Sequence record: OP312987.1
DNA length: 64,000 bases
Direction: 5' to 3' (one strand)
Source of the DNA: Escherichia phage vB_EcoS_Uz-1
Shown: in pieces, positions 10,353-36,805 of the stretch
Layout: the number at the start of each line of letters is the position of its first letter
Position numbering within the stretch: position 1 is the stretch's first letter
Position numbers and translations under genes: made by a program
Notes under the pieces: generated by a model
Seen by the model: the letters and a program-made list of their open reading frames with translations, nothing else
Database searches by the model: none
What the model was told of the DNA's origin: nothing

Positions 10353-11195
10353 ATGATTATGTCTTGTTCTGCTGAGGTAGAAGCTAACCGACTCCTAGAA
10401 GAGTTGACTAAGGGTGATGACTTTACCCTTCCCGATGTTGATATGACTGGTCCCGAATGGGATATCCCTGGTGGGGATGATTCTCCAATCTTTGGTGCTA
10501 TTGATAAAATATCCAACGAATCTCTTACTACTCGAGAAGTGGGTGGTAGTGGTACGTTTGATGCATTAATGGAATCTGCTCACAATCATCTTAAAGCTGA
10601 GTTTAAAGCTAACCGTATTACTGGTGGTGAATATACCAAAGCATACATTGCTATGATGGAATCTTGCATGAGCAATGCTGTTCAGTTCTTACTTGGTCGT
10701 GACCAGGCATACTGGGCTGCTGCTATGGCACAGATTCAAGCAGTTACTGCTCGTGTTCAACTGGCAACGTCTAAAGCACAGTTTGTGCTGGCTAAGATTC
10801 AGGCACTGTCTGCTAAGAGTGAGTATGCTCTTACTAAGATGAAGATTGCTACTGAGTCTGAAACGTACTGTGCTGCACTGTTTAACGCTAACCAGATGTT
10901 ACCTCAACAGCTTAAATTGCTTACTGAGCAGACTGAAGCACAACGTGCACAGACACTTGATACCCGTAGTGATGGAGCTACTGTTACTGGTTCTGTAGGT
11001 AAACAGAAAGAGTTGTACTCACAACAGATTACTTCTTACCAACGTGATGCAGAAGTTAAAGCATCCAAGCTGTTTACTGATGCATGGATTACTCAGAAGA
11101 CTATTGATGAAGGCTTGAATCCACCTAATGGTTTCACTAATGCAAGTATTGATACCATTCTGACCAAGCTGAAGTCTAACAACGGGCTGAACTAA
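10353..11195 (+). CDS. hypothetical virion protein
   Basis: 280-aa ORF in the structural block; helical, Q/A-rich. Confidence 0.45.
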
Positions 11196-11196
11196 T

Positions 11197-13850
11197 ATGG
11201 GCTTATTCAGTGGGAAGACCAAAGTATACGTAGCATCCTCTGTCTATAACATGGCAGGGGATATACATAAGCGTCCAAACTATATGAAGACTGTAGTCAT
11301 CGGTAAGATTGTTGCTGATACAGGATTCACTATGGCAGATACTATCTCTGATAGTTATCTGAATGGACCGGGTATTCGTATGCGACTGTTCTCCAGCTGG
11401 AGTAAGAACCACTATGACTCAGAAGTTGGTATGGCAGGAGCTTCATTAGGTGTGCTGGCAAAGATTGACCCTACTGTTATAGAGGGTCAAATTACCCCAC
11501 CTGCTGGAGAATCAGTCTATGTTCAGGCAGCAGAGATTGGCTTTGCTGACTTTGAGCAATGGTGTGACCAGTATCTTTATGAGAATGCTCCAAGTCGAAT
11601 CATGGAACGATTCGACATAGACATTGATGAAGATACCAATGAAATTACTATGACCTCCCTTGATGGAGGTTCTACCATTACATTCACACCTACTAACTTT
11701 GAACCAGGTGCTTTATATCTCTATGCTGATTACTCATTCTATAAGTCCCCGGCTACCAATCCACCGGTAGTAGGACCGACTACTGTCTATGATGATGAAG
11801 ATGACTTACCGTCTACTTTGTTGTGGACTACCATCTCAAGTGATACGACAGCTAATACAACCAATCTTACTAAGACTATACAGACCCATTCTGTTTACTC
11901 TGATGGTAGGCCGGATGAAGACAGTACTGTTACTGAACCAAGTGTGGATAACTGGAACTCTTATGTTAAGGTTTACCGTAGAGGATTCACTGAAAAGCCT
12001 GATGACGTAACTGTAGTTGTATCTGACAGAGTAATGACTCATACAAAGTTTGGTGAGGTTCAATCCAGTACTACTGTAACTACCAATGTTGTTAATTTAG
12101 GTGGTGGTGTTACTCGCACTGACACAATCACCACAACTACAGAGACACTGGTTCGTAAGTACTCATCCCAGACTACTCGTACTGATACTGAGATGACTGC
12201 TGTTGGTACACCTAAGATGCTTATCTATAAGCAGAACTCTGGCAACGTTGCACTTGATTCCCTGTTTGAGACTGAAGCTACTGATAATCGATTCTACCAT
12301 TTATTCCAATCAGGAATGATAAACAATGGGTAGAGAATGACCCAATCTATCCTCACTGTAAGAAGGCACTCTATAAAGCTACTGGTGGTAAGCTCAATAA
12401 AGTAGTGACGGAGCTTAAGAAGAATGACGACATAGGTGATATTCAATACATCTATGGTACATTTGGTGTATCTCTTAATACTCCAGAAGATACGGCTAAG
12501 GAATACATCTACCGTTTCTTTCAGATGGCTACTGAAGCATTCCCACCTGACCCAACTTACCCTACATTGGAAGCAGTGATTGCAGGTTATCAGGCAGCAA
12601 ATGATGCAGTCGATGCATACGTAGAATGGTGGAACAGGCAGGAAGGTCAGATTGTTGGAACACCTCCATCTCTTCCAGAATACCCTGTTATACCTAAGCG
12701 AGAGTTTAGGATACATAGTAATAAGCAGTATAAGTACGACATGACCATTGGTTGGAACTACGTGTCTGAAACTACCCATTCCGGTGAAGCATGGGCTGGT
12801 GCTAAGCAAGGACAACTTCGAGCCAGATATGCAGGAGATATAACTCTTACCCGTAAGAACATACGTACTGCTAGTACCTACTGCTATGCTAACAAACTAG
12901 AAGTTACCACTACGTTTTATTCTATGCAGGAATACGAGTTACTTTGGCAGGATGGTAATGACACTTACCGTAAACTTAGAGTACTGGGTCTAAATCACAA
13001 CAATAGGGTATATAAGAATAAATCAGTAAGTATTGATGTTGCCGAAGCAATGGGAGATGCAGAGGAGAGTGGGTTCATTATCCCACTACACACTAATATT
13101 TACCGTTCAATGTCACTGGTTCGTAGTACACAACTGTCTACTGCCTGTTCCTACTTAGTGATGAACTCATACAAGAAAGTTAAGCAGAAATGGTATCAAA
13201 CCTCTGCTTTTAAGATTGTGGTCGTTGTAGTTGCTGTCGTTGTATCTGTATTCACTATGGGTACGGGTGGTGCAGGTATACTTGGGGCATATGGTGCAGT
13301 TGGTGCATCTCTGGGTTTTGTTGGATTAGCTGCTGTAATAGTTGGTGCTGTAGCAAACGCCATAGCTGCAATGATTCTGGTATCCATTATTACTAAAGTA
13401 TCTACTTCACTGTTCGGTGATAAGCTAGGTTTTATCATTGCTGCTATTGCCTCAATGGTAGCCATGAACGTTGGTACTGCTTTGTCTACTGGTACATCCT
13501 TATCCTCCCTAGCTGGTGAAATGATGAATGCTCAAAACATCATGCAACTTACCAGTTCGGTAGGTAATGGTATTAGTCAGTATATTAATGCATCCACGGC
13601 TGCTACTATTCAGAAAGCAGAGAATGTAATGCAGCAGTACAATACTGATATGATGGCAATCAATAAGCAGTATGAAGAAATGTTTGGTACTGCTGGGCAG
13701 GGTGTAATTGACCCTATGCAATTTGTGTCAATGGAGTCGTTGGATTCTTTCCTCTCACGTACTCTTATGACTGGTTCGGATATAGCTGACATGTCTTTAA
13801 ACATGGTTGGCAGCTACTCTGATATGACTCTTAATACAGACCTTGTTTAA
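11197..13850 (+). CDS. large virion protein with a long G/A-rich hydrophobic segment; apparently split by a frameshift near 12290-12400
   Basis: Track ORFs 11197..12333 and 12405..13850 (GTG start). The downstream frame is open and protein-like for about 39 codons before its annotated start, overlapping the end of the upstream ORF. Combined length about 884 aa. Hydrophobic glycine-zipper-like stretch encoded around 13196-13470. Confidence 0.4.
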
Positions 13851-14307
13851 CAGGAGAATCCCCATGGATTTGTCATTCTTAACAGGCAACCAAACCCCAC
13901 AGCCAGCTGCTATGTCTTGGATGTCTAATAACAATCAGAACTTTAATACCCCAGCTATGAACTACAATCCGGGTGCAGCTATTGGTATGAATGCAGGTAC
14001 AGGATTAACTACCCCTACCTCTTTCTTATCTGGTTCAGCTAATCAGTTGGGTATGAACGTACCTACCTTCCAGCTAGGACTTGGTGCACTTGGTTCATTA
14101 GCCAATATCTATAGTGGTTTCCAAGCTAATAAGTTAGCCAAAGACCAGTTGAACTTTACTAAGAGTGTTACTAACACTAACCTGAATAACCAGATTAAGT
14201 CTTATAACACTGCACTGGAAGATCGTGCTCGTAGCCGTGCTACAGCAGAGAACCGTGACCAGTCTACTGCTGATGCTTATATTGCAGCTAATAAACTAAC
14301 TCGTTAA
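13843..14307 (+). CDS. hypothetical virion protein
   Basis: 154-aa ORF, N/Q/G-rich, overlapping the upstream gene end by 8 nt. Confidence 0.45.
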   Translation: MFNRRIPMDLSFLTGNQTPQPAAMSWMSNNNQNFNTPAMNYNPGAAIGMNAGTGLTTPTSFLSGSANQLGMNVPTFQLGLGALGSLANIYSGFQANKLAKDQLNFTKSVTNTNLNNQIKSYNTALEDRARSRATAENRDQSTADAYIAANKLTR

Positions 14308-14319
14308 TAGGAAACTATC

Positions 14320-15186
14320 ATGGCTCAGATAACCTGGCGTAATGTTGATGCACCTAACTTCTCTGGAGTTGGTGACAGCATTCGCACATTTGGCAACATG
14401 ATTGGTAACGCCACCTCCGGCTTAAGTGATGCACTGGGTAATTTCCAGAACGCTGCCAAGCAGGAGGCTGGTAATGCCGTCATGATGAATGCTATGCAGT
14501 ACCAAGACCCAACTGAGTATCGTAATGCATTAGCATCTGGTGCACTGTTTCAGGGGGTTGACCCTTCATTGGTAAACCAGCGTACTCTCCAGAATCTGGA
14601 TGAGCGAGCAGGTACTCTTCTGTCTCAGCAAGGTCAGCAGGGGATCAATGACTACAATGCTTATCGTTTTGGTCGTTTACAGAATACTGACTCTGCATTA
14701 GATAATGCTTCCCCAGCTATTCGTTTACTGTCTGAGGCTTATCAGTCTGGTGACCAGAATCGTATTAATGCTGCATTAGGTCAGACCCGTGAGGCATTAT
14801 CTGCATTACCTGCTGACCAACAACTGGATATGTTGAGTCGTCTACAAGGACAAGGTGGTCAGGCTATTAACCAAGCACAGAATCGTTTTGATTTGGGTGT
14901 GGCTCAACGTAATGATGCGGATAGTCAGGCAGCTATGGGTGTAATGTCACAGATTACCCGTGGTTCTGAGAACCTAATGATGCTCGTTTGTTGGCAGAGG
15001 CGTATAGTAAAAACCTGTCCCCTGTTGCACAGGCACGTTTACAGGAAATGCTTGCTCGTGCATACCGGTGTTTATGGTAATAATGTTGGTGCTACGTCTG
15101 CTCCGGGTACTGCTGGTACTCGTCAGGGTTCCCCTTATGATGTTACTTACCAATTTGCTGGTACATCTACCCTATTACTCAAATGA
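14320..15186 (+). CDS. hypothetical virion protein; possible internal compensated frameshift pair near 14975 and 15070
   Basis: 288-aa ORF. Between about 14975 and 15070 the annotated frame reads as garbage (LMMLVCWQRRIVKTCPLLHRHVYRKCLLVH) while the +1 frame reads protein-like (EPNDARLLAEAYSKNLSPVAQARLQEMLARAY) and is bounded by stops. Confidence 0.4.
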   Translation: MAQITWRNVDAPNFSGVGDSIRTFGNMIGNATSGLSDALGNFQNAAKQEAGNAVMMNAMQYQDPTEYRNALASGALFQGVDPSLVNQRTLQNLDERAGTLLSQQGQQGINDYNAYRFGRLQNTDSALDNASPAIRLLSEAYQSGDQNRINAALGQTREALSALPADQQLDMLSRLQGQGGQAINQAQNRFDLGVAQRNDADSQAAMGVMSQITRGSENLMMLVCWQRRIVKTCPLLHRHVYRKCLLVHTGVYGNNVGATSAPGTAGTRQGSPYDVTYQFAGTSTLLLK

Positions 15187-15446
15187 GTATTGGTGATGTA
15201 ATTAAACACCAGGATGGTATGAAGACGAACCAAGGTGCTTCACCTGTTGGTGCATTCCAAATTAACCAAGCTACTCTGAAAGACTTCGCTCCTAAAGTTC
15301 TTGGTTCAGATTGGCAAAGCCAGCCTCTTTCTCCTGAGAACCAGGATAAGATTGGTAAGGCTATCTTTGAGGCCCGTAAGAATGGCAACCTTAAAGATAC
15401 CTGGGCTGCACTTCCTAACTCTACCCAGGTGCTTATAAGGATATGA
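15183..15446 (+). CDS. hypothetical protein, ATGA-coupled to neighbours
   Basis: 87-aa ORF; start overlaps the upstream stop (ATGA) and its stop overlaps the next start. Confidence 0.4.
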   Translation: MSIGDVIKHQDGMKTNQGASPVGAFQINQATLKDFAPKVLGSDWQSQPLSPENQDKIGKAIFEARKNGNLKDTWAALPNSTQVLIRI

Positions 15447-16279
15447 CTTGGGAACAGATTAAACCTGTTATTGCTCAAGCCGAGGTGGGAGCTGACCCAC
15501 TCGCTATGGTTCAGAATAATCAAGGTAATCAGGCAGTATCTACTCTGGCTCAGGGTATGATTGGTACACGTTCTATGCAGGATAACACCGGTAGTCTTAA
15601 CACTGACTTCCTTGGTACTGTCACTGATAATACCCCAGTAGGTGAGATTGCTAACCGTTTGTTGGAAGGTGACTTTAAAGGTGCTGACCGTAACTGGGTA
15701 CTGAACCGACTGAATGATATTTCTCAACGTGGGAATATGTCACCAGCTATGGCTGCTGCTGTTATGCAACGTGCACAGACCGGTGTTCCAGAAGGTTATA
15801 TTAGTCGTGCTATTGATGCAGTTAACCCATTCATTACCAATGAAGCTGGTAATGGTATGCGTCTTAATGACCGTCTGGTAGATCAGTTAATTGAGGGTGT
15901 ACAACGTGGTGAACCACTGGAAGGTAGTGTGCGTAATCTTGGACGTGCTCAAGCTATGCAGAATATTCAGGCAGCACAGACTGCTTATGATGCTGCTGTA
16001 GCTGCACTGACAAATACCCAGAACAAGATTAACACTGGACAAACTGGACTTACTGCACTGTTACCTGCACGTCAGGAAGCTGTTACTAAAGCTGCTGCAA
16101 TGCTTCAAGCTGCCCAAGCTCAAGTACAGGCTGACCCAGCTAACCTGGCTCCAAGAGGTTTTCAGTCTCAGGCTAGTGTGGACAGGGCACGAGCCAAGGA
16201 AGATGAAGAACGTGCTGCACGATACTTACGTCAGGCACAAGGTTTGCCTGAGTATATGCAACCAAGACAAAATCGGTAA
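15443..16279 (+). CDS. hypothetical virion protein immediately upstream of the virion RNAP
   Basis: 278-aa ORF, A/Q-rich, ending 76 nt before the giant polymerase gene; may belong with the two preceding ORFs as one gene. Confidence 0.4.
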   Translation: MTWEQIKPVIAQAEVGADPLAMVQNNQGNQAVSTLAQGMIGTRSMQDNTGSLNTDFLGTVTDNTPVGEIANRLLEGDFKGADRNWVLNRLNDISQRGNMSPAMAAAVMQRAQTGVPEGYISRAIDAVNPFITNEAGNGMRLNDRLVDQLIEGVQRGEPLEGSVRNLGRAQAMQNIQAAQTAYDAAVAALTNTQNKINTGQTGLTALLPARQEAVTKAAAMLQAAQAQVQADPANLAPRGFQSQASVDRARAKEDEERAARYLRQAQGLPEYMQPRQNR

Positions 16280-16285
16280 TACTAA

Positions 16286-16310
16286 TAAAAGCCCTTCGGG
16301 GCTTTTTTCT
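16286..16310 (+). terminator. intrinsic terminator
   Basis: AAAGCCC-TTCG-GGGCTTTTTTC, a GC stem followed by a T-run. Confidence 0.5.
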
Positions 16311-16354
16311 TAACAGGCTTACTGTAGAGTAAGCTTCCTATATACGATATAAGT

Positions 16355-19300
16355 TTGAACAGGAAACATGCTATGTCAACATTTGACCGTCTGGCAGGTT
16401 TCGCAGACAGCATCACTAATGCTAAGCAAGTCGATGTCTCTACTGCAACCTCCCAGAAGCAAGCTGCACAAGGGCAAAGCCCTTTCCAATTAACCCCAGA
16501 GAATGCTTACAATCTCCAAACAGGTCGTGTAGGTAATCTTGGAATCGGTGCATTCGAACCAGGTTCACTTCAGGCAGATTTCACTCAAGCCTCCCCATTA
16601 GAAATTCTTAATAAATACGGTAATGAGCAAGGTCTACAGATTCTTAATAGCCGAGCTAATGCTGCTGATGCTGTACGTCAGGACTTATCTAAACAACGTA
16701 CTAACGCAGAAGCATTTGGCGATACTCTTTCTGGTGTTGGTCTTGGTGTTGCTAATACCCTTGGGGGCATTGCTGCTCTTGGTACAGGTCTGGTCAATGA
16801 TAATGCCGGGGCATCCATTGCTTCTGGGATGGATTGGCTGAATGAAGGTGTACATAATCTACAGTCTGATGCACTGAATGCTACCCGTAAGGTTGTTCAG
16901 AATCAGAACCAGATTTCTGCACAAAAGAACCAGAAGCTCTATAAGCAAGACATTAAAAATGGGGAGAGCAATTTAGTTGCCTCCTTGTCTCGTATTGGTC
17001 GTGACGCTTTTGATTCTGTTGCTAATACACTCGATAATGGTATGTCTGCTACTGACGGGTTAAGTGAGGGTGTTGGTTCCCTCTTTACTGGTGGTCCACT
17101 CATCCGTGGTGTATCTGCACTTGGTAAAGTAATGGTAGGTGGTAATAAAGCTGTTAAAGGCATTACCCTAGCTGCTGAGTTAGGTTCACGTCCTGCACAG
17201 GTTGCATTGTCTGCTGGTCGTGTTGCTGCACCTGCTATTGCAATTGGTGGTATGGAAGCAGGTGGTGCATACCAACAGACTGCTTCTGAAATCATGAAGA
17301 TGCCCATCAATGAATTGGCAAGTAAGTCTCCTGTTTATCAACAACATATTGCTGATGGTTTATCTCCTGATGAAGCACGTCGTCAGACTGCATCTGAGAC
17401 AGGTATCACTGCTGCTGGCTTAACTGCTCCAGTTGCTGCTGCTACCGGTCCACTGGTATCTCGCTTTGAACTTAACCCACTTAAGGTAGGTTCACTGGCT
17501 GGTGCTGGCTCTAATATGCTGCGTGAAACTGTAGAAGAAGGTATTCAGTCTGGTACAAGTCAGTTTGCACAGAACAAGGCAATTCAGGGTAATGTAGATG
17601 CTAAGCGTGATTTGCTTAAAGGTGTCGGTGAGCAAGCAGGTCTTGGTGCACTTTATGGCTTCGGTAGTGCTGGTGTTGCTCAGGCTCCAGGTGCAACTGT
17701 TAAAGCTGTTGGTGCTTCTGCTGGGCCTGCTTTACGTACTACTCTGGCAGGTGCTTCTCTGGTTGGTAAGGCATTAGCAAAAGTAGCCTCTCCTCTTACT
17801 AACATCCTGGTTCAACGTGGGGAAGAAGTTGCTAAGCGCAATGAGCAAGCATCCCCTGTAGCTGATGCTACGGTTAATGCTGCTGCACAGGAAGCTGCTT
17901 CTCAGGCAGAACAAGCACAGGCAACTGTACAGGAAGCAGTAGATGCAATGGACATCTCTCCAGAAGAGAAGGCTGCTGCTACCCAGTATGCTGCTGACTT
18001 AACTCAGGCAATGAAGTTTGACCCTGTAGAATTGGAACAAGCTAACCCAGTAATCCGTGAAGCTGTTTCTGGTTCCACTAACCGTGTAGAAGCTATTCAG
18101 AAAATGGCTGACTTGGTTAATACTGCTGAAGACCCTAACGTTCAAATGGAAGCTGCAATCCAGATGTATGACAATATCATGTCTATGGATAGCTTCATTA
18201 ATCGTGACCCGGGTGCTCTGGCTAATCTGGAACAGGGATCTCCTGCTGCTACAATCGTAGACCAGTTCTCCGGCCTGATGGCTAACGTACAGAATACCCC
18301 TAAAGTACTTCGTGCATTCCGTGCCATCCATTCCATGATTCAGGAACAGGCTGAAGCAGGTAAGCTGAAGGCTACTGAAGAAGCTAATCAAGCCCAAGCA
18401 AACAACATTGCTATGGCTGCCGATGTATCTCCAGAAGTACTGGATGCAGATTCAGTGAACATGGTTCTGAAACATGCAAGTGAAGGTAAGATTACACTGG
18501 GGAATCGTCAACGTGCTGCCCTGCAATCTGCTGCTGCCTTGTTACAGGGTGCACGAGAGTTCGACGCTAAAGCAGAAGAACTAGGCTTACGTCCTCAGGA
18601 CATTGTTAGTAAACAGATTAAAACCGACGAGTCTCGTTCTAATGAAGGACAGTACTCTGCGTTGCAACATGCGAAACGCATTCGTTCTGCGTATAACTCT
18701 GGTAACTTCGATTTGGCCTCCGCTTATCTGAGCGACTTTATGAAGTTCGCCCAGCACATGCAGAATAAGGTCGGAGCGTTGAATGAGCATCTGATTTCGG
18801 GGAATGCGGATAAGAATAAGTCTGTCCATTATCAGGCTCTCTCGCCTTCCCGTGAATGGGTACGTAGTCGTACTGGTCTTGGTGTCAATCCGTATGATAC
18901 CAAGTCGGTTAAGTTTGCCCAGCAAGTAGGACTGGAGGCCAAGACCGTAGCTGATATTGCTAACGCACTTGCTACGGCTTACCCGGAGCTTAATGTTTCT
19001 CATGTGAAAGTTACCCCATTGGATTCACGTCTGGACAAGCCTGCTGCCCAGGTAGTTAAAGAGTTCCGTCAAGGTGGTCTTGATGCCACTCAGTCTCAAC
19101 AGACTAATGAACCAGTGAATCAGGTTGATGAAACTCCTGCACCTGTGCAAGAGGCCACTACTACTGTACAGCCTAAAGCTAAACCAGTGGTAGAAAATAA
19201 GACTGTTCCTGTTAAGGAGACTAGTTCAAAAGCAGAAGAAGTCTCTACTACCGAATCCGAAAGGGATGCTTATGTGAAAGAAAATACTATTTCACAGGAC

Positions 19301-22300
19301 ATCCTCAATAAGAGTGGTGATCGTAGAGAGAGTCCTTGGCTCTTTGCTGATGGTACTGTTGTTGGTTCTAACGGTGATCACATTAGCCTGTCCGATGTAT
19401 TTGGTCACGATGGTTATCGTGATATGTCTCTGGACACTGGTGCTGTACGCTCCACTTTCTACAAAGGTAGTGAGCAACCATTTGTATCTCTGCAATTGTT
19501 TGATAATCAGAAGTTGACTGCTAAACAGTTTGATACTGTTAAGTCCTTTGTTGATGCTAACAATGCACTGATTCAAGTAGGTGTAGATACTTCTGGTCGT
19601 AATACCAATAACGTTGAGAAGGTAGAGGTATCACTGGCTCAACTGAAAGCAGACTATACTGTTGGTGGTAAACCTTTGTCTGAGATGGAAACAGTGTTCC
19701 CTGTTTATAACAATGACAAGACACCGAACCAGTTCCTTAAAGCATTTACCCTACCAGAAGAACCTAAGTCTCGTACCATTGGCTCTGAATCTCCTTTGAC
19801 TGATGTTAAGAAAGCACTGTCTTCTGCTGCTCGCTTTGAAGCATTCACTCAAAAAGAAAATAACGCTCTCACAAGTGATGTGATTAAGCGTTATCAGGAC
19901 TTAATGGACTTTGGTGAAACCCTGAAGACTACCCTGTCTGACCGTCTGACTAAGTTCCTTGCTAACAAGAATGTCGGTAAACGCTTTGCAGAAGGTACTG
20001 AGGCTAACCGTTGGGTAGGTGGTAAGTTACTTAACATCGTAGAGAAAGATGGGGATACCTTTAAGTTTAATGACCAGTTGTTAGAGACTGCTGTACTTGC
20101 TGGTCTGCAATGGCGATTGACTGCTACACAGAATGCTGCCGTTAAAGATATGAAAGACGTAGCTGCTATTACTGGTGTAGAAGCATCTCTGTTACCTGAA
20201 GGTATTCTGGCTGACTTCGAGAATGCTCAGACCCTGGTTGAAGCTACTAACTCACTGGCTCAAAAGATTGAATCTTATTGGGGTCTGAATCGTAATCCTA
20301 ATGCACCACTGGGTTATACCAAAGGTATCCCAATGGCAATGGCTACGGAGATTCTGTCTTCTCTCATTGAGATGGGTGAAGTTAAAGAATCTATGCTTGA
20401 TGTGTCTGAGATTGACCCAGATTCCAATAAGACTGTTGGTCTGTATACCATTGAGAAGCTGGATGACAATGATGCCATTAATAAATTCCCTACTGCTATT
20501 GAGGAAGCTGTCCTCTTAGAACCAGAAGAGAAAATGTACTTCGGTGACGACATTCCTTCCGTGGCTCAAACTCAGTTACGTAACCCGGCTGTTAAGAATA
20601 CCCCTGAGCAGAAAGCTGCACTGAAAGCCGAACAGGCTACCGAGTTCCGTGTACACATGCCGATGGTTAACTTCTATGAAGCATTGGGACGTGACAACAT
20701 TCTGGAACTGATGGGTGCTGGTACTCTTAACCCAGAACTACTGAACGTGAACACTGCTAAATCTCTGGAAGGTAAAAACCTGTCCGTATCCATGGCATAT
20801 GATTCTCTGTTTGGTGTAATCAGCCAGATACGGGAACAAGAGAATGGACTGGATACACCTATCCATTACGGTTACAACATGACCCGTGTAGGTCGTATGC
20901 AGATGCTTGGTAAGAACAACCCACAATCCAGTAAACTGGTTCGTGAAGCAATCTTACCGACTTTCTCTACTATCGACTTGAGTAATGAAAACAGCCAAGC
21001 GTTCTCTGACTTCCAGTTAGGACTGGCTCAGGCATTAGGCATCAAGGTACATAACATGTCCCGTGAAGCTATGTCTGAAAAGTTGACCAAGGCTCTGGAA
21101 GGTAATCTGAAACCTGCTGTTGATATGATGGTTGAGTTTGATAAGTCTGGGCACTTACCTGCTGATGCAGTAGATATTCTGAAGACCTCCTGGGTGGATG
21201 ATAAATCCTTCGTAGCTCTCATGGCTCTGATGGAATATGCCCGTTACCTGAACAGTGATGACCGTGCCAACTTTACTACTCCACTTTACGTTGAAGCTGA
21301 TGGAGTAACCAACGGCCCGATTAACGCAATGGTATTAATGACTGGTGGTAAGTTCACCCCAGACTGGATTAAGAATACTGCCAAAGGTGGCTTGTTCTTC
21401 GGCAAAGCTGGTAAGACTATGAACGAACATCGTTCACAGGATGACAGTGTTGACCTGTATGAAGCATCTACCAATGGTCTGCAACAAGCCCTGAATGAGT
21501 TACGTACTACTTACCGTAACAACGTTCCGGTTATGAGCCAGATGAATCATCTCCAGAAGTTAATGGACCTGTTCATCAAAGACTTTAACCTGAACGAAGA
21601 CGGTACTCTGGACCTGAAACGTGGTATCGCTAAAAACCCACTGACCATTACCATCTATGGCTCTGGTGCACGTGGTATTGCTGGCAAGATGGTTAGTGCA
21701 ATTACTGACACCATCTATGAACGCTTCAGTGACGTTCTGCAAGCACGGGCTGCTGACCCTAGCATTTCCCCGGCTATGGCAATGTTTGGTAAGGAGGCTG
21801 CGTCTGAGGCTGATGCTCAGGCTATGCTGGATACTTTCCTTACTTCTATGGAAGCACTGACTGGTAATGTTCCAGTTATGCGTAAAGGTGAATTGTCTAT
21901 TCAGCAAGTAGAGGGTGCTCTGACTGGTAAGTTAGACCCTCAGAAATTTACCGTATCCGGTAACGCCCTGAAGAACTTACAGGAGAACATGCTCCATCTG
22001 TTCGTTGAACCAATGCGTACTGGTATCCGTAATACTGTTGGTGAAGGTCTGATGCACTCTACCGAGAACTTGCAGAAGGCTACCCAGATTCAGTCTCTGG
22101 TATTGCAGGATATGTTCCAACAAGCAGTACAGGCTAAGCTGGCAGAAAAAGAAAAAGACCCAACCTGGAAGAAGGGTGATTTCTTAACCCAGAAAGAACT
22201 GAATGAAATCCAGGAATCATTGTCTCCATTGGCTCCAATGATTGAGACTGGTTCGCAGACTTTCTACATTGCTGGTAGTGAGAATACTGATGTTGCTAAC

Positions 22301-25300
22301 CAAGTGCTGGCTACCAACTTAGATGACCGTATGCGTGTGCCAATGAGCATCTATGCTCCTTCGCAGGCAGGTGTTGCAGGTATTCCATTTATGACCATTG
22401 GTACTGGTGATGGCATGATGATGCAGACCCTTTCTACTATGAAAGGTGCTCCGAAGAATACCCTTAAAATCTTTGATGGTATGAACATTGGTATCAACAA
22501 CATCACCGATGCAAGTCGTAAAGCTAACGAGGCTGTGTACACTTCCTGGCAGGGTAACCCTATCAAGAATGTTTATGACTCCTTCTCTAAGTTCATGAAG
22601 AATGTAGACTTCAGCAAACTGTCTGATGAAACCAAACAAGCCATTGCTAAGTCTGCTCTGGAATATGACCAGCGTGAAGGTGCTACTGATGACCTGTTAC
22701 GTGTTGGTGCTGAACAGATTGAACGTAACCTGCGTAACATTGCTCTGGGTGTAGATATTCGCCACAAAGTAATGAACCAGGTACAGACTACTGTTGACCA
22801 GATGGCAGCTGTAGGTGCTCCTTACGTTAATAATGGTAAAATCTCTCTGGAAGGTCTGACCGTAGACCAGCAAGTAGCTAAGCTGAACGAACTGTTTGAT
22901 GCTGAGTTAAACAAGCGTCGTGATGCAGTACGTGCTGCTAAAACAGAACCAGAGAAAGAAGTACCAGCAATGGAACAGGTTGGTCGTGTACTGAAGTCTG
23001 GTGTACGTCTACTGTCTAATACTGCTATCTCTAAGCTGGCTAAAGAGATGTCTCCGGAACAGCAAGCAGTATTGAAAGAAGTACAGAAATCCCTTGCTGC
23101 TAAAGACTACAAGGTTGTTTACGGTACACCTTCTCAACTGGATGCATACGCTATTGAGAAGAATATTACTCGCCCAGCACCGGAAGATATTGAAGCTGCT
23201 GAAGCAGGTAATGCGTATGGCTGGACTAATTTCGAGGATAAGACCATCTACTTAGTTACCCCTTCCTTAGAGACTCTGGTTCATGAATTGGTACATGCTT
23301 CTACTTTTGAATCTGTACTGGCTCACTATGAGGGTACTCCTAATGAAGCAGTCCAGAACATTGAAGACCTGATGAACCAGTTCCGTGCTCTGGATGTTAA
23401 GGATGAAACTCCGGCAGTACGCGAAGCATACGCAGATGCACTTAATACTATTAATGGTCATTTATCTAATGGCTTCATTGAACCAGCAATGGCTAAAGCT
23501 GCTGCATTAAATGAGTACATGGCGTGGGGCTTAACCAACCGTGAACTGATTAGTAAGCAGAAGAAAACTACTGCACTTAAGACTATGGTTCAGGCTGTAT
23601 ACGAAGCAATCAAGCGTCTGGTATTTGGGCGTAAGAAAGCACCAGCTAATGCAGATGATATGTTCTCAGGCTTACTGTTTAACTCTGCTGTAGTAATGCG
23701 TGGACAAGCTCCTACTGCTGCTGTAGCCAAAGATACTACCTTGTTCCATAACAAAGCATACGGTGACAATACTCGTCTGGAAGAGCTAGGGAAAACCTTT
23801 GATAAGTTGATTACTGATTACATTGGCTCAGAACCAGTACAGCAAGTAATTCGTAAAGGTAAGTTCTCTGATGCAGTAGTGAATGCAACTAAAGTAACTC
23901 GTGATGTTCAGGCTCATGGCTTCACTATGAATATGCAGGAACAGCGTCTCTTTACTAACATCGTTGCTGCTCTGGCTATTGAAGCTGCTATTAATCCTGC
24001 TGTCCCGGCTCGTGCACAGGAATACTATACGCATGTTACTAAGAACCTGACTGTTGAAGCATTCATGGCTGACCCAGATAGTACTAACCCTGCTGACCGT
24101 TACTATGCTCAACAGAAGTTCGATACCATCATGGGTGCTAACAACATTGAGTTTGATGCACAAGGTCGTTCTTCCTTACTGCCTACCTTTGTTGGTCTGG
24201 CAATGGTAAGTGAAGAAGTACGTAGAGTATTGGCTGACATTCCAGTTATGAAAGCAGATAAGCAATCCGGTAATACAGTTGATGCAATGCTGACTAACAT
24301 CGGTACTGCTGCAATGGCTAGTCTTAATGCTCGTGTAGCAGGTGATACCAAAGCTACCAACGTACAGGAAGGTATGGATGCACTGGCTCAGACAATCATG
24401 CAGACAAGTCTTAATGCACAATCCTTCTACGATTCCGTTGCTACTCCTAGTGGTAATGCTATTGATCGTGCTAACCAGTATCTGGTGGACTCTATTGATG
24501 TACTGTCTACCCGTGCTTTAGAAGGTGCTCGTGAAGTTGCAGCTAATACTAAGAACCCGTTGGTTAAAGGTGCTGCTCATGCTGCACAACTAATAGCTGC
24601 TATTGCCACAGAAAAGAATGGTGCAATCGTAGCTGAGGGTGTTATGGCTGCAATGAACCAGGGTAAGGTATGGCAACCTTTCCATGACCTGGTTAATGAC
24701 TTAACTGGTCGTACTAAGAGCAATGCTTCTGTATATGATTTGATTAAAGCAGTTCGTGCACAGGTACAAGCTGACCGTCAGCAGTTCCGTGAACATTTGC
24801 CTACCACTATCGCATCTAAGTTCAGCCGTAAGCTTACTAATGATGAGTGGAAAGCAATGCATACTGGTATGGGTAAAGCTGACTTAGCTGTTTTACGCGA
24901 CACTATGTCTCTGGCTGAAATCCGTGACTTGCTGACTGACCAGAAGATTGTTGACCGTGAAGTGAATAAGCTGGAAGCAGACTTGCAGAAACAAGCAGGA
25001 CGTAACTGGCCTCTGATTAGTCGTAAATCTAAGCAACTGGCTCAGTACATGATTAATGGCACAGTTGGTAATAATCTGCTGCGTAATGCTACTGCAATTT
25101 CCCGTATGCTGGGTGAACGTCAGGCTGCACGTTCTACTGTAGATGTAGCTCAACTGGATAAACTGATTACTCTGTATGCACTGGAAGCAATGAGTAAGAC
25201 TGACCGTGAGATGTTATCTTCACTGGCTCAGACAGAAGTTGAGGGAATGGACTTTGCTACTTCTTATCTGGTTGGGCAGCGTAAGGATGAAATGGCTAAA

Positions 25301-27085
25301 GCCAAATCTGATACTCGTGCAACCCTGAACCAGTACAAAGGGTATATCCCCAGTGAGACTAAACAGGGTGTTAACCTGATTGTTGCTGAAGATAGTCAGT
25401 TTGCTGATTTGATTGAGAAGTCCTACGTACGTTTAGGTACATATCAAGGTAGTTCTGCTAATCGTGGTCCAGCACGTAGCTACTATTTTGCACCGGTACA
25501 GGCACAGGCTCCATTCTCACAGGGTATCCTACAGAACGTTCGCAATACTGCTGGTGGTGTAGACCTTGGCACAGGCTTTACGATGGGTTCTATGGTAGCT
25601 GGTCGTATCACTGACAAGCCGTCCGTAGACCGAATCACTAAAGCACTGGCTCGCGGCGAGCGTGGGAATGAACCACTGCTGCCTGTATATGATGATAAAG
25701 GTAATGTAGTTGCTTATGAGCAATCTATTGACCCTAATATGCTGAAGCACATTGAGGGTGAAAATCATCTTGCTCGTGCAATCGGTGTATGGCGTGGTCG
25801 TCAGGTAGAGGAAGCTAAGGCTCAGCGTTTCAACGATATGCTGATTGAAAACCTGCATAACATGTATGAGAACGACATTAAGATGTCTGCCTCTAATAAG
25901 TCCCAGTACGTGAATCTCCTTGGTTCTAAACTGGACCCAGTAACTGCCGATGCACTTAAACTTATGAACAGTGAAACACGTCAGAAAGCTGAAAGTCTGT
26001 TTGGTGAAGGTGAACTGTGGGTACGGCGTGACATGCTGAATGATGCATTGGGTTATCGTGCAGCTTCTGTAGGGGATGCCTGGTCTGGTAATTCTCGTTG
26101 GTCCCCGGAAACACTGGATACCTTCAAGAAAGCTATGCTAGGTGTATTCGGTAACCGTGCTTATAAGTATGTAATGGGTGGTGAGAACCTGGTTCAGAAT
26201 TTAGTTAAAGAAGCCAAAACTCTGATTGTAGTTAAGTCAGTAGTTGTACCTGCTGTTAACTTCTTAGCTAACCTTTACCAGATGGTTGGTCGTGGTGTAC
26301 CTGTTAAGAACATTGCCAAGAGCATTCCACAGAAAACTGCTGAGATTAACCAGTACCTGAAATCTCGTCTGCGTCAGGTAGATGCAGAAGCAGAATTACG
26401 CGCAGCTACTAACCCGAACCAGATTCGTAAGCTTAAGGCTGAAATTCAGTCCATTACTGATAGCCATAAGCGTATGAGTATCTGGCCTCTGTTAGAAGCT
26501 GGTGAGTTCTCTTCAATTGCAGATGCTGGTATTGGTCGTGATGACATCCTGATTACTGAAGGTAAACTTCACGAATACATGGATAAGCTGGCTGATAAGT
26601 TACCTAAGTCTGTACGTAATGCTGGACGTTATGCACTTATAACCAAGGATACTGCTCTCTTCCAGGGTATCCAGAAGACGGTTGAGTACTCTGACTTTAT
26701 TGCTAAAGCAATCATCTATGATGACTTAACTCAGCGTAAAGGTAAGACTAGTGAAGAAGCACTTGGACGTGTAACAGAAGAGTTTATTAACTATGACCGT
26801 CTGCCAGGTCGATTCCGTGGGTATATGGAGAGTGTCGGTTTAATGTGGTTCTATAACTTTAAGATTCGTTCTGCAAAAGTTGCAGTATCCATGATTCGTA
26901 ATAACCCGGTACATGCAGCTATGGCTATGTTGGCTCCAACTCCTACCATGTTTGGTAACGTTGGTCTGCCTATTCAGGACAACATCTTCAGTATTGCTGC
27001 ACAAGGTAATCTCGGTTACTCCTGGGGCTTCGGACAAGGGCTACGTGCCCATAACCTGAACCCTTGGCTCAATCTTACTAACTAA
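16355..27085 (+). CDS. virion-encapsidated RNA polymerase (N4 gp50-like giant vRNAP)
   Basis: Single uninterrupted 3576-aa ORF (10.7 kb) at the end of the structural module. This size and placement is the hallmark of N4-like phages. Polymerase motifs were not verified by alignment. Confidence 0.85.
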   Translation: MNRKHAMSTFDRLAGFADSITNAKQVDVSTATSQKQAAQGQSPFQLTPENAYNLQTGRVGNLGIGAFEPGSLQADFTQASPLEILNKYGNEQGLQILNSRANAADAVRQDLSKQRTNAEAFGDTLSGVGLGVANTLGGIAALGTGLVNDNAGASIASGMDWLNEGVHNLQSDALNATRKVVQNQNQISAQKNQKLYKQDIKNGESNLVASLSRIGRDAFDSVANTLDNGMSATDGLSEGVGSLFTGGPLIRGVSALGKVMVGGNKAVKGITLAAELGSRPAQVALSAGRVAAPAIAIGGMEAGGAYQQTASEIMKMPINELASKSPVYQQHIADGLSPDEARRQTASETGITAAGLTAPVAAATGPLVSRFELNPLKVGSLAGAGSNMLRETVEEGIQSGTSQFAQNKAIQGNVDAKRDLLKGVGEQAGLGALYGFGSAGVAQAPGATVKAVGASAGPALRTTLAGASLVGKALAKVASPLTNILVQRGEEVAKRNEQASPVADATVNAAAQEAASQAEQAQATVQEAVDAMDISPEEKAAATQYAADLTQAMKFDPVELEQANPVIREAVSGSTNRVEAIQKMADLVNTAEDPNVQMEAAIQMYDNIMSMDSFINRDPGALANLEQGSPAATIVDQFSGLMANVQNTPKVLRAFRAIHSMIQEQAEAGKLKATEEANQAQANNIAMAADVSPEVLDADSVNMVLKHASEGKITLGNRQRAALQSAAALLQGAREFDAKAEELGLRPQDIVSKQIKTDESRSNEGQYSALQHAKRIRSAYNSGNFDLASAYLSDFMKFAQHMQNKVGALNEHLISGNADKNKSVHYQALSPSREWVRSRTGLGVNPYDTKSVKFAQQVGLEAKTVADIANALATAYPELNVSHVKVTPLDSRLDKPAAQVVKEFRQGGLDATQSQQTNEPVNQVDETPAPVQEATTTVQPKAKPVVENKTVPVKETSSKAEEVSTTESERDAYVKENTISQDILNKSGDRRESPWLFADGTVVGSNGDHISLSDVFGHDGYRDMSLDTGAVRSTFYKGSEQPFVSLQLFDNQKLTAKQFDTVKSFVDANNALIQVGVDTSGRNTNNVEKVEVSLAQLKADYTVGGKPLSEMETVFPVYNNDKTPNQFLKAFTLPEEPKSRTIGSESPLTDVKKALSSAARFEAFTQKENNALTSDVIKRYQDLMDFGETLKTTLSDRLTKFLANKNVGKRFAEGTEANRWVGGKLLNIVEKDGDTFKFNDQLLETAVLAGLQWRLTATQNAAVKDMKDVAAITGVEASLLPEGILADFENAQTLVEATNSLAQKIESYWGLNRNPNAPLGYTKGIPMAMATEILSSLIEMGEVKESMLDVSEIDPDSNKTVGLYTIEKLDDNDAINKFPTAIEEAVLLEPEEKMYFGDDIPSVAQTQLRNPAVKNTPEQKAALKAEQATEFRVHMPMVNFYEALGRDNILELMGAGTLNPELLNVNTAKSLEGKNLSVSMAYDSLFGVISQIREQENGLDTPIHYGYNMTRVGRMQMLGKNNPQSSKLVREAILPTFSTIDLSNENSQAFSDFQLGLAQALGIKVHNMSREAMSEKLTKALEGNLKPAVDMMVEFDKSGHLPADAVDILKTSWVDDKSFVALMALMEYARYLNSDDRANFTTPLYVEADGVTNGPINAMVLMTGGKFTPDWIKNTAKGGLFFGKAGKTMNEHRSQDDSVDLYEASTNGLQQALNELRTTYRNNVPVMSQMNHLQKLMDLFIKDFNLNEDGTLDLKRGIAKNPLTITIYGSGARGIAGKMVSAITDTIYERFSDVLQARAADPSISPAMAMFGKEAASEADAQAMLDTFLTSMEALTGNVPVMRKGELSIQQVEGALTGKLDPQKFTVSGNALKNLQENMLHLFVEPMRTGIRNTVGEGLMHSTENLQKATQIQSLVLQDMFQQAVQAKLAEKEKDPTWKKGDFLTQKELNEIQESLSPLAPMIETGSQTFYIAGSENTDVANQVLATNLDDRMRVPMSIYAPSQAGVAGIPFMTIGTGDGMMMQTLSTMKGAPKNTLKIFDGMNIGINNITDASRKANEAVYTSWQGNPIKNVYDSFSKFMKNVDFSKLSDETKQAIAKSALEYDQREGATDDLLRVGAEQIERNLRNIALGVDIRHKVMNQVQTTVDQMAAVGAPYVNNGKISLEGLTVDQQVAKLNELFDAELNKRRDAVRAAKTEPEKEVPAMEQVGRVLKSGVRLLSNTAISKLAKEMSPEQQAVLKEVQKSLAAKDYKVVYGTPSQLDAYAIEKNITRPAPEDIEAAEAGNAYGWTNFEDKTIYLVTPSLETLVHELVHASTFESVLAHYEGTPNEAVQNIEDLMNQFRALDVKDETPAVREAYADALNTINGHLSNGFIEPAMAKAAALNEYMAWGLTNRELISKQKKTTALKTMVQAVYEAIKRLVFGRKKAPANADDMFSGLLFNSAVVMRGQAPTAAVAKDTTLFHNKAYGDNTRLEELGKTFDKLITDYIGSEPVQQVIRKGKFSDAVVNATKVTRDVQAHGFTMNMQEQRLFTNIVAALAIEAAINPAVPARAQEYYTHVTKNLTVEAFMADPDSTNPADRYYAQQKFDTIMGANNIEFDAQGRSSLLPTFVGLAMVSEEVRRVLADIPVMKADKQSGNTVDAMLTNIGTAAMASLNARVAGDTKATNVQEGMDALAQTIMQTSLNAQSFYDSVATPSGNAIDRANQYLVDSIDVLSTRALEGAREVAANTKNPLVKGAAHAAQLIAAIATEKNGAIVAEGVMAAMNQGKVWQPFHDLVNDLTGRTKSNASVYDLIKAVRAQVQADRQQFREHLPTTIASKFSRKLTNDEWKAMHTGMGKADLAVLRDTMSLAEIRDLLTDQKIVDREVNKLEADLQKQAGRNWPLISRKSKQLAQYMINGTVGNNLLRNATAISRMLGERQAARSTVDVAQLDKLITLYALEAMSKTDREMLSSLAQTEVEGMDFATSYLVGQRKDEMAKAKSDTRATLNQYKGYIPSETKQGVNLIVAEDSQFADLIEKSYVRLGTYQGSSANRGPARSYYFAPVQAQAPFSQGILQNVRNTAGGVDLGTGFTMGSMVAGRITDKPSVDRITKALARGERGNEPLLPVYDDKGNVVAYEQSIDPNMLKHIEGENHLARAIGVWRGRQVEEAKAQRFNDMLIENLHNMYENDIKMSASNKSQYVNLLGSKLDPVTADALKLMNSETRQKAESLFGEGELWVRRDMLNDALGYRAASVGDAWSGNSRWSPETLDTFKKAMLGVFGNRAYKYVMGGENLVQNLVKEAKTLIVVKSVVVPAVNFLANLYQMVGRGVPVKNIAKSIPQKTAEINQYLKSRLRQVDAEAELRAATNPNQIRKLKAEIQSITDSHKRMSIWPLLEAGEFSSIADAGIGRDDILITEGKLHEYMDKLADKLPKSVRNAGRYALITKDTALFQGIQKTVEYSDFIAKAIIYDDLTQRKGKTSEEALGRVTEEFINYDRLPGRFRGYMESVGLMWFYNFKIRSAKVAVSMIRNNPVHAAMAMLAPTPTMFGNVGLPIQDNIFSIAAQGNLGYSWGFGQGLRAHNLNPWLNLTN

Positions 27086-27091
27086 ATAAAA

Positions 27092-27119
27092 AAGCCCCTC
27101 TATTGAGGGGCTTCTATTT
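27092..27119. terminator. bidirectional intrinsic terminator between convergent late and early/middle units
   Basis: AAGCCCCTC-TATT-GAGGGGCTT with A-run on one side and T-run on the other, between the stop at 27085 (+) and the stop at 27120 (-). Confidence 0.55.
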
Positions 27120-29069: not shown

Positions 29070-29071
29070 AT

Positions 29072-36734: not shown

Positions 36735-36740
36735 AATTAG

Positions 36741-36803: not shown

Positions 36804-36805
36804 CA

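What the first reader, a model, noticed from the sequence alone, without database searches (positions are those of the whole stretch)
11197..16279. Late virion genes upstream of the vRNAP show probable frameshifts and a long glycine-zipper-like hydrophobic segment
ORFs 11197..12333 and 12405..13850 behave as one gene of about 884 aa whose frames overlap open for about 39 codons. Its C-terminal half encodes an approximately 90-residue hydrophobic G/A-rich stretch (AFKIVVVVVAVVVSVFTMGTGGAGILGAYGAVGASLGFVGLAAVIVGAV...), unusual for a virion protein and suggestive of a membrane-inserting ejection protein that might help deliver the giant polymerase. ORF 14320..15186 contains a 34-codon segment that reads as protein only in the +1 frame, and the next two ORFs are ATGA-coupled in different frames.
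Basis: partly seen in the sequence, partly recalled or inferred. Interest (0 to 1): 0.45.

Follow-up and report, generated by a model that had tools for sequence, protein, structure and literature searches.

The report
Sequencing-error frameshifts in N4-like tail genes
The apparent frameshifts are missing bases copied from one error-prone database record (phage Bp4), splitting two ordinary, already-characterised N4-type phage genes: the tail plug, whose known 'hydrophobic knot' is the hydrophobic stretch, and an ejection-tunnel protein.

Summary
ORFs 11197..12333 and 12405..13850 are one gene cut by a 1-nt gap at 12296/12297. ORFs 14320..15186, 15183..15446 and 15443..16279 are one gene cut by gaps of 1, 2, 1 and 1 nt. 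Restoring these bases gives 884-aa and 654-aa ORFs that match N4 gp53 (tail plug, PDB 9YFT) end to end and N4 gp51 (periplasmic-tunnel ejection protein, PDB 11MN).

The frameshifts are not biology. Among about 49 related phage records, only Bp4 (KJ135004.2) shares them. The window aligns to Bp4 without a single indel over 64,000 nt despite 3,811 substitutions. Phage PD38 is 99.98% identical to Bp4 here, has all seven bases, and shows each site to be a homopolymer. DNA polymerase, primase and rIIA are broken in the same way.

The roughly 100-residue hydrophobic stretch (aa 666-765) is the conserved segment that in N4 gp53 forms a 'hydrophobic knot' corking the tail tube. It is not a canonical glycine zipper, and no membrane insertion has been shown for it.

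Verdict: known genes plus a sequence artefact. Low interest.

The parts
10353..11195 (+). gp54-like tail-tube gene (280 aa), immediately upstream of the plug gene
   Evidence: Matches N4 Gp54 (PDB 9LC0/9YF4/9YFT, E 6e-124) and a 279-aa 'Tail protein' 9D80_C (E 4e-148). Hits phrog_2050. The protein is identical to that of phage PGN829.1.
11197..13850 (+). gp53-like tail-plug gene. It is one gene of 2655 nt (884 aa) in relatives, written here as two ORFs (11197..12333 and 12405..13850).
   Evidence: Adding 1 nt after 12296 gives an 884-aa ORF with no internal stop, 96.6-97.3% identical to Bas96 and E20. It matches N4 Gp53, PDB 9YFT_FA, over residues 1-883 (1057 bits). Relatives annotate a single 2655-nt CDS.
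12296..12297 (.). Site of the missing nucleotide that splits the plug gene (TCTA-CCATT)
   Evidence: In 47 of 49 phage records the 301-nt query spans 302 nt; only Bp4 and its RefSeq copy span 301. Three IMG/VR contigs all carry the extra base. PD38 has CCC where Bp4 has CC.
13191..13490 (+). Coding region of the 100-residue hydrophobic A/V/G-rich stretch (aa 666-765 of the restored protein). Aa 674-720 correspond to N4 gp53 670-716, part of the 'hydrophobic knot'.
   Evidence: Hydropathy. Alignment to N4 gp53. Structural role from PMC13434306. Conserved in 9ZE4_M, 'N4 gp53-like protein'.
13864..14307 (+). gp52-like small ejection protein (147 aa; outer-membrane complex in N4)
   Evidence: Matches the N4 '16.5 kDa protein', PDB 9YF4_OA (E 5.5e-45), and the N4 gp52-like protein 8VXQ_A. 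Hits phrog_2646. Role from PMC13434306.
14320..16279 (+). gp51-like ejection protein gene (periplasmic tunnel in N4). It is one gene of 1965 nt (654 aa) in relatives, written here as three ORFs (14320..15186, 15183..15446, 15443..16279).
   Evidence: Adding 1+2+1+1 nt gives a 654-aa ORF, 95.4-96.0% identical to Bas96 and E20. Residues 1-357 match N4 gp51 ('66 kDa protein', PDB 11MN_A, E 2e-128) continuously across the first three gap sites (14972/3, 15066/7, 15170/1); the 15424/5 site (about aa 370) lies beyond that match and rests on the relatives' proteins. The three fragments hit phrog_6126 at 1-294, 299-381 and 388-666.
14973..15066 (+). 94-nt segment that is out of frame within ORF 14320..15186, bounded by a 1-nt and a 2-nt gap
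   Evidence: The homologous peptide appears only in the other frame and aligns to N4 gp51 residues about 217-248.
15170..15171 (.). Missing nucleotide that creates the stop at 15184-15186
   Evidence: PD38 CCCC versus Bp4 and window CCC; E20 and Bas96 have CTCC.
15424..15425 (.). Missing nucleotide that creates the stop at 15444-15446
16287..16306 (+). GC-rich hairpin (AAAAGCCCTTCGGGGCTTTT) between the gp51-like gene and the vRNAP gene; likely terminator. Its T-tail is shortened by a seventh shared gap at 16311.
   Evidence: A 'terminator' is annotated under the match in the PhAPEC5 and PhAPEC7 records.
16355..27085 (+). Giant virion RNA polymerase gene (gp50-like; probable true start is the ATG at 16373), downstream context
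   Evidence: 3576-aa ORF. Annotated as virion RNA polymerase in Bas96 and Bp4.

Best explanation
The stretch is the standard Schitoviridae (N4-like, genus Gamaleyavirus) tail-tip and ejection cassette. The order is tail tube (gp54-like), tail plug (gp53-like), outer-membrane ejection protein (gp52-like), periplasmic-tunnel ejection protein (gp51-like), terminator, then vRNAP (gp50-like).

The plug and tunnel genes look split because six nucleotides are missing at five coding sites, plus one in the intergenic T-run. These gaps are homopolymer under-calls of the GenBank record of phage Bp4. The window sits in that record's exact coordinate frame, so it inherited them. It is most likely a substitutions-only, reference-scaffolded consensus, or is otherwise derived from Bp4. 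The real phage almost certainly makes one 884-aa plug and one 654-aa tunnel protein.

By homology with the N4 cryo-EM structure, the long hydrophobic stretch folds with residues 29-56 into a knot of short helices that corks the 12-mer tail tube. The remaining C-terminal residues lie in the tail lumen. Receptor binding displaces the plug and lets gp52, gp51 and the vRNAP leave.

Shown here: the gaps, their exclusivity to Bp4, the homopolymer origin, and the homologies. Inferred: how the window was built, and the structural role by transfer from N4.
For: 1. Restoring 1 nt and 5 nt yields uninterrupted 884-aa and 654-aa ORFs, 95-97% identical to E20 and Bas96. The plug matches N4 gp53 end to end. 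The tunnel protein matches N4 gp51 over residues 1-357, across the first three of its four gap sites. The fragments map to consecutive parts of single PHROG profiles.

2. Only Bp4 shares the gaps. 47 of 49 records carry +1 nt at the gp53 site. Every full-length gp51 match except Bp4 carries +5 nt. Three IMG/VR contigs are intact.

3. The window aligns ungapped to Bp4 8584..72583 over 64,000 nt at 94.0% identity, with 3,811 substitutions and no indel. Bas96 versus the window needs 20 alignment blocks and many indels. Eleven blocks of 100% identity to Bp4 mostly coincide with segments absent or strongly divergent in Bas96, for example 1-2960 and 36191-37027. That is what is expected where a scaffold is left unchanged.

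4. Around each gap the window differs from Bp4 within 2-12 nt on the left and 4-57 nt on the right. At five of the six sites the surrounding 200 nt are no closer to Bp4 than to either intact phage; at 15170 E20 is slightly more distant than Bp4 (17 versus 15 mismatches). So the gaps are not Bp4-derived recombination patches.

5. PD38 differs from Bp4 by 2 substitutions in 8.4 kb yet has all 7 bases. Every site is a homopolymer in PD38: CCC, CCC, CCCGGG, CCCC, CCCC and a T-run. At 12296 and 15170 the window's nearest relatives have T, not C, so the window's 'TACC' and 'TACCC' can only come from the Bp4 text.

6. The same kind of gap breaks genes on the other strand. DNA polymerase needs 3 restored nt and primase needs 1 to regain the Bas96 lengths of 2580 and 2154 nt. 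rIIA and the gp24- and gp25-like genes are also split. A phage with such a polymerase gene would not be viable.

7. The role of the hydrophobic stretch comes from the N4 gp53 structure and text (PMC13434306).
Against: No reads are available, so I cannot prove how the window was made or that its source phage has intact genes. The substitutions between window and Bp4 look natural (third-codon-position bias, transitions over transversions), so a real relative underlies the window, and in principle it could carry real mutations. The Bp4 paper (Zhang et al. 2016) is not held in the library, so the sequencing platform is unknown. The structural role of the hydrophobic stretch is transferred from N4, with high identity over that segment, and was not tested in a Gamaleyavirus.
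Confidence: 0.92

Rival explanations
1. The gaps are independent sequencing errors. On this view the window's phage was sequenced and assembled de novo on the same error-prone platform as Bp4, which under-called the same homopolymers.
For: In the Bp4/PD38 lineage all seven sites are homopolymers. Platform errors recur at the same runs.
Against: At 12296 and 15170 the haplotypes closest to the window (E20, Bas96) have TATCC and ACTCC, which offer no homopolymer to under-call. A de novo assembly of a phage 6% divergent from Bp4 would not show zero indels over 64 kb, including accessory regions that are 100% identical to Bp4.
Confidence: 0.04
2. The frameshifts are genuine mutations of a real phage lineage (Bp4 plus the window's phage). 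That lineage would make a two-piece tail plug and a three-piece tunnel protein, or would carry pseudogenes.
For: Two sequences share the gaps. Downstream fragments still show purifying selection, with third-position substitutions.
Against: The two sequences are not independent, since they have zero indels between them. PD38, 99.98% identical to Bp4, is intact. The gaps sit on non-Bp4 haplotypes. The essential DNA polymerase and primase genes would be destroyed as well. The N4 plug knot is built from residues 29-56 and 670-716 of one chain. The GTG at 12405 has no obvious ribosome-binding site (read from the sequence).
Confidence: 0.02
3. The gaps are programmed ribosomal frameshifting or another recoding mechanism that joins the frames during translation.
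For: The second frame is open for 39 codons upstream of 12405 and overlaps ORF1. The 94-nt out-of-frame segment in the gp51-like gene contains no stop in the ORF's own frame.
Against: In 47 of 49 relatives the genes are simply in frame, so no recoding site is conserved. There is no X XXY YYZ heptamer at the 12289-12333 overlap (read from the sequence). Five shifts of mixed size (-1, -2) would be needed within 1.1 kb. Identical gap types occur in minus-strand genes and in intergenic DNA.
Confidence: 0.01

Closest known systems
Bacteriophage N4 gp53, tail plug of the tail-gating complex (PDB 9YFT; Bellis et al., Nat Commun 2026, PMC13434306)
   Same: It is collinear over residues 1-883 (1057 bits), has the same position between the tail-tube and gp52 genes, and has nearly the same length (884 versus 885 aa). 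The hydrophobic stretch and the N-terminal 29-56 segment that form the knot are conserved.
   Different: As written in the window, the gene is cut by a 1-nt gap. The middle region (about aa 100-360, the beta-feather region in N4) is more divergent. In Gamaleyaviruses the partner that holds the plug may differ from the N4 gp65 sheath; this was not examined here.
Bacteriophage N4 gp51 ('66 kDa protein'), periplasmic-tunnel ejection protein (PDB 11MN, decamer), functional analogue of T7 gp15 and DEV gp72
   Same: Residues 1-357 align to the solved N4 fragment 1-359 at E 2e-128. The gene lies directly upstream of the vRNAP gene and has the same overall length class (654 aa).
   Different: It is written as three ORFs with an internal out-of-frame segment. 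No Kyte-Doolittle segment >=1.6 was found in the restored protein, whereas the N4 paper reports predicted membrane helices at the gp51 termini.
GenBank record KJ135004.2 / NC_024142.2 (Escherichia phage Bp4)
   Same: It has identical ORF boundaries (1137, 867, 264 and 837 nt fragments) and identical gap positions. The coordinate frame is identical over all 64,000 nt.
   Different: There are 3,811 substitutions (6%), of natural-looking type. In this region the window's bases are closer to E20 (93.8%) than to Bp4 (92.2%).
Pseudomonas phage DEV plug (gp74 in PMC13434306; probably the 'N4 gp53-like protein', PDB 9ZE4_M)
   Same: 9ZE4_M shares the hydrophobic stretch and the C-terminal region (E 1.6e-15, query 626-870). 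The DEV gp74 plug seals a homologous 12-mer tail tube.
   Different: 9ZE4_M is 740 aa. The DEV gp74 plug lacks the beta-feather domain and is held by a different receptor-binding assembly. That 9ZE4_M is DEV gp74 is my inference: entry 9ZE4 also holds the 'gp75 tail tube' chain, and gp75 is the DEV tail tube.

Membership tests
N4 gp53 tail-plug family (phrog_2220) | Full-length collinear sequence homology to N4 gp53 | tested here: met
   The restored protein aligns 1-883 to 9YFT_FA residues 1-883, 1057 bits. The fragments hit phrog_2220 at 1-354 and 394-847 of 850.
N4 gp53 tail-plug family (phrog_2220) | Conserved knot-forming segments (N4 29-56 and 670-716), hydrophobic | tested here: met
   Both segments align with high identity. 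Hydropathy is >=1.6 over aa 666-765.
N4 gp53 tail-plug family (phrog_2220) | Gene sits between the tail-tube gene (gp54) and the gp52 gene | tested here: met
   Searches identify the neighbours. The order is the same in Bas96, E20, PD38 and Bp4.
N4 gp53 tail-plug family (phrog_2220) | Encoded as one uninterrupted polypeptide | tested here: not met
   As written, the window has a 1-nt gap at 12296/7. The feature is met after restoring one base. The gap is attributed to an error inherited from Bp4.
N4 gp53 tail-plug family (phrog_2220) | Single copy plugging the distal end of the 12-mer tail tube in the virion | not testable with these tools
   This needs cryo-EM of a Gamaleyavirus. It is known for N4 only.
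N4 gp51 periplasmic-tunnel ejection protein (phrog_6126) | Homology to the solved N-terminal 359 residues of N4 gp51 | tested here: met
   Residues 1-357 versus 11MN_A 1-359, E 2e-128.
N4 gp51 periplasmic-tunnel ejection protein (phrog_6126) | Single ORF directly upstream of the vRNAP gene | tested here: not met
   The position is met. The single ORF is not met as written, because four gap sites are present. It is met after restoring 5 nt.
N4 gp51 periplasmic-tunnel ejection protein (phrog_6126) | Forms an oligomeric tunnel and shows membrane activity | not testable with these tools
   Biochemistry exists for N4 only.
Programmed ribosomal frameshift site | Shift conserved in relatives, with a slippery heptamer in the overlap | tested here: not met
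   47 of 49 relatives are in frame. There is no X XXY YYZ motif in 12289-12333.
Glycine-zipper membrane motif ((G/A/S)xxxGxxxG or GxxxGxxx(G/S/T)) | At least one canonical tandem motif in the hydrophobic stretch | tested here: not met
   A regex search finds none. There are only two isolated GxxxG (positions 703 and 741) and a period-3 GxxG run at 689-710.

The most novel reading that the evidence does not exclude
About 45 hydrophobic residues lie beyond the resolved knot (aa 721-765), followed by a 119-residue C-terminus. In N4 these are unresolved and lie in the tail lumen. Once the plug is displaced they might insert into the outer membrane, which would make the tail plug a fourth, membrane-active component that primes the channel for gp52, gp51 and the vRNAP. 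Nothing here tests this. The N4 data show only that the plug stays tethered and that its C-terminus may act as a 'ripcord'. The alternative novel reading, that the frameshifts are real and functional, has a probability of about 0.02.
Probability: 0.12. Interest if true: 0.4.

Novelty: already known. Interest (0 to 1): 0.07.

Why it matters
It matters mainly as quality control. The split 'structural protein' ORFs annotated in Bp4, and reproduced in this window, should not be taken as separate genes, translational coupling or recoding. The window as a whole should not be treated as an independent genome. At least seven genes, including DNA polymerase, carry the same inherited gaps, so any frameshift-type finding elsewhere in this window deserves the same suspicion.

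Biologically, the region adds one more member to the tail-gating and ejection cassette of N4-like phages. Its parts were assigned structurally in 2024-2026.

Tried and rejected
- Pfam scan of the restored gp53-, gp51-, gp52-, gp54- and gp55-like proteins gave no family at E <= 0.01. This offers no support for a lysozyme or transglycosylase domain in the gp51-like protein, despite one record's 'lysozyme containing protein' label. The N4 paper also finds no PG-hydrolase in the ejection proteins.
- Exact-protein look-ups of the window's fragment ORFs (11197..12333 and 15443..16279) found nothing on record, so the window's source could not be identified. The gp54-like protein is identical to that of PGN829.1, whose contig has intact 884-aa and 654-aa genes.
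- An IMG/VR scan for the gp53 junction, allowing 0 or 1 extra base, returned 3 contigs, all intact.
- The Bp4 genome paper (PMC8193434) is not held. The Schitoviridae review and the UPEC-phage paper mention Bp4 but not its frameshifts.
- I first suspected a 'T/C lost before CC' sequence-context artefact, or a modification-site effect such as Dcm or SmaI-like sites. I dropped this when PD38 showed that the sites are plain homopolymers in the Bp4 lineage.
- Natural recombination as the source of the mosaic was rejected. Imported patches would carry the donor's intact indel state, yet the gaps sit on non-Bp4 haplotypes.
- My first lax-gap BLAST produced many spurious compensating gaps. It was redone with stricter costs.
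Full report
**What the window is.** The region belongs to an N4-like coliphage of the genus Gamaleyavirus (Schitoviridae). A megablast of 11000-16400 finds 73 phage records. The best are E20 (93.8%), KKP 3715, Bas96 and others, and 43 of them cover at least 80% of the query. The gene order is major capsid protein, gp55-like, gp54-like, gp53-like, gp52-like, gp51-like, then the giant virion RNA polymerase.

**Checking the observation.** These are 11197..12333 (378 aa), 12405..13850 (481 aa, GTG start), 14320..15186, 15183..15446 and 15443..16279.

The frame of the second ORF is open from 12288. That is 39 codons upstream of its GTG, and it overlaps ORF1 by 46 nt.

In Bas96, E20 and PD38 the same DNA is annotated as one 2655-nt gene and one 1965-nt gene. 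A four-way alignment shows the window lacks:
- 1 nt at 12296/7
- 1 nt at 14972/3
- 2 nt at 15066/7
- 1 nt at 15170/1
- 1 nt at 15424/5
- 1 nt at 16311, in the intergenic T-run

There are no other indels in 8.2 kb.

The 94 nt between the first two gp51 gaps are therefore out of frame inside ORF 14320..15186. The homologous peptide PNDARLLAEAYSKNLSPVAQARLQEMLARAY is seen only in another frame. The two 'ATGA couplings' are internal Met codons that happen to follow the third and fourth gaps.

Putting the six coding bases back gives uninterrupted ORFs of 884 and 654 aa. These are 96.6-97.3% and 95.4-96.0% identical to the Bas96 and E20 proteins. The fragments hit consecutive parts of single PHROG profiles.

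**Are the frameshifts biological?** No, for six reasons.

1. They are exclusive to one record. For a 301-nt query across 12296, 47 of 49 records span 302 nt; only Bp4 (KJ135004.2) and its RefSeq copy span 301. For the gp51 stretch, every full-length match except Bp4 is 5 nt longer than the query. Three IMG/VR contigs also carry the extra base. Bp4 is annotated with exactly the same fragments of 1137, 867, 264 and 837 nt.

2. The window is not independent of Bp4. It aligns to Bp4 positions 8584-72583 with no gap at all over 64,000 nt, at 94.0% identity. That is 3,811 substitutions and zero indels. By contrast, Bas96 against the window needs 20 alignment blocks, kilobase-scale insertions and dozens of small indels. 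The substitutions look natural: third-codon-position bias and 2,568 transitions against 1,243 transversions. Eleven blocks of 100% identity to Bp4 mostly coincide with segments that Bas96 lacks or where it is very divergent. Examples are 1-2960 (tail spike), 36191-37027 (HNH endonuclease), 52617-53139 and 61027-61938. This pattern fits a substitutions-only consensus laid on the Bp4 record, with unchanged scaffold where nothing mapped.

3. The gaps do not sit in Bp4-like patches. The window differs from Bp4 within 2-12 nt to the left and 4-57 nt to the right of every gap. At five of the six sites the surrounding 200 nt are no closer to Bp4 than to either intact phage; at 15170 E20 is slightly more distant than Bp4 (17 versus 15 mismatches). 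Natural recombination would have imported the donor's intact state.

4. Phage PD38 belongs to the same species as Bp4. It differs from Bp4 by 2 substitutions in this 8.4 kb (99.98% identity) but has all seven bases. In PD38 every site is a homopolymer: CCC, CCC, CCCGGG, CCCC, CCCC and a T-run. The Bp4 record therefore carries homopolymer under-calls.

5. At 12296 and 15170 the window's closest relatives have T (TATCC, ACTCC). No homopolymer error could arise there, yet the window shows Bp4's text. The gaps were copied, not re-made.

6. The same kind of gap breaks other genes, including ones on the opposite strand.
   - DNA polymerase regains a 2580-nt ORF after three 1-nt restorations.
   - Primase regains a 2154-nt ORF after one restoration. 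Both lengths are exactly those of Bas96.
   - rIIA and the gp24- and gp25-like genes are split as well.
   
   As written, the genome could not replicate.

**Programmed frameshifting** is excluded. Relatives are in frame, there is no slippery heptamer in the overlap, and the shifts are of mixed size and occur regardless of strand or coding status.

**What the genes are.**
- The restored 884-aa protein matches N4 gp53 (PDB 9YFT chain FA) over residues 1-883.
- The restored 654-aa protein matches the solved N-terminal 359 residues of N4 gp51 (PDB 11MN, ten chains) at E 2e-128. The match runs continuously across the first three of its four gap sites (14972/3, 15066/7, 15170/1). The 15424/5 site (about aa 370) lies beyond the solved fragment, and continuity there rests on the relatives' full-length proteins.
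- The neighbours match N4 gp54 (tail tube; 9LC0, 9YF4) and the N4 16.5 kDa protein gp52 (9YF4).
- Pfam has no model for any of them.

According to Bellis et al. 2026 (PMC13434306):
- gp54 forms the 12-mer tail tube.
- A single gp53 plugs the tube and is held by the receptor-binding sheath protein gp65.
- gp52 sits in the tail lumen before ejection, and gp51 sits around the portal.
- After ejection they form the outer-membrane complex and the periplasmic tunnel through which the vRNAP leaves. The body text and figure legends assign gp52 to the outer-membrane complex and gp51 to the tunnel, while the abstract states the reverse.

**The hydrophobic stretch.** In the restored protein it spans aa 666-765 (window 13191..13490). 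It has 18 A, 18 V, 13 G and 10 I, and only four charged residues. It aligns almost identically to N4 gp53 and is still recognisable in the 740-aa 'N4 gp53-like protein' 9ZE4_M.

[quoted passage not shown] So the segment is a known, conserved feature of the family, with a structural role in gating. Membrane insertion has not been shown.

It contains no canonical glycine-zipper motif. There is a period-3 GxxG run at 689-710 and two isolated GxxxG.

**Verdict.** The cause is a sequence artefact inherited from the Bp4 record. The genes are ordinary members of the N4 tail-plug and ejection-protein families, and the hydrophobic segment is already explained structurally. Novelty: already known. Interest: low.

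The one open point is what the unresolved hydrophobic C-terminal part of the plug does after displacement.

**Limits.** I have no reads and no access to the Bp4 paper. The source of the window could not be identified.

Noticed in passing
window 1-64000: The whole window is in the exact coordinate frame of Bp4 (KJ135004.2 positions 8584-72583), with 94.0% identity, 3,811 natural-looking substitutions and zero indels. Eleven blocks of >=500 nt are 100% identical to Bp4: 1-2960, 27115-27735, 28882-29667, 36191-37027, 44684-47096, 47533-48559, 52617-53139, 53920-55796, 56872-57423, 61027-61938 and 62021-62799. Most lie where Bas96 has no or only divergent homologous DNA. It looks like a substitutions-only consensus on a Bp4 scaffold.
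   Followed up: yes
window 37584-40160 (minus strand): The DNA polymerase gene is broken by three 1-nt gaps (near 38153, 38533 and 40080). Restoring them gives a 2580-nt ORF, the same length as in Bas96.
   Followed up: yes
window 33111-35263 (minus strand): The DNA primase gene is broken by one 1-nt gap near 35023. Restoring it gives a 2154-nt ORF, as in Bas96.
   Followed up: yes
window 44951-47516, 51479-52651, 53137-54188 (minus strand): The rIIA-like, gp25-like and gp24-like genes are also split into two or three ORFs, as in the Bp4 annotation. Isolated gaps relative to Bas96 lie at 45303, 46733, 51974, 52138 and 53636.
   Followed up: partly
window 16287-16311: There is a GC-rich hairpin (AAAAGCCCTTCGGGGCTTTT) between the gp51-like gene and the vRNAP gene. 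PhAPEC5 and PhAPEC7 annotate a terminator in this stretch. The seventh shared gap shortens its T-tail, and the simple scan then reports the hairpin only on the minus strand.
   Followed up: partly
window 28423-28501, 29202-29280, 29572-29643 (minus strand): ARAGORN predicts three tRNA genes: Ile (aat), Cys (aca) and Ala (cgc). The unusual anticodons aat and aca match the Bp4 annotation. They lie in or next to blocks identical to Bp4.
   Followed up: no
window 16355-16373: The mechanical vRNAP ORF starts at the TTG at 16355. Bp4 annotates the start at the ATG corresponding to 16373 (MSTFDRL...).
   Followed up: no
L012 (PD38, MH669274.1) versus L003 (Bp4): PD38 and Bp4 differ by only 2 substitutions and 7 homopolymer-length differences over 8.4 kb. 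In effect, PD38 is a corrected version of the Bp4 sequence for this region.
   Followed up: yes
PMC13434306 (literature): The abstract of the N4 paper assigns gp51 to the outer-membrane complex and gp52 to the periplasmic tunnel. The results, figure legends and discussion say the opposite (gp52 = OMC, gp51 = PT). I followed the body text.
   Followed up: partly
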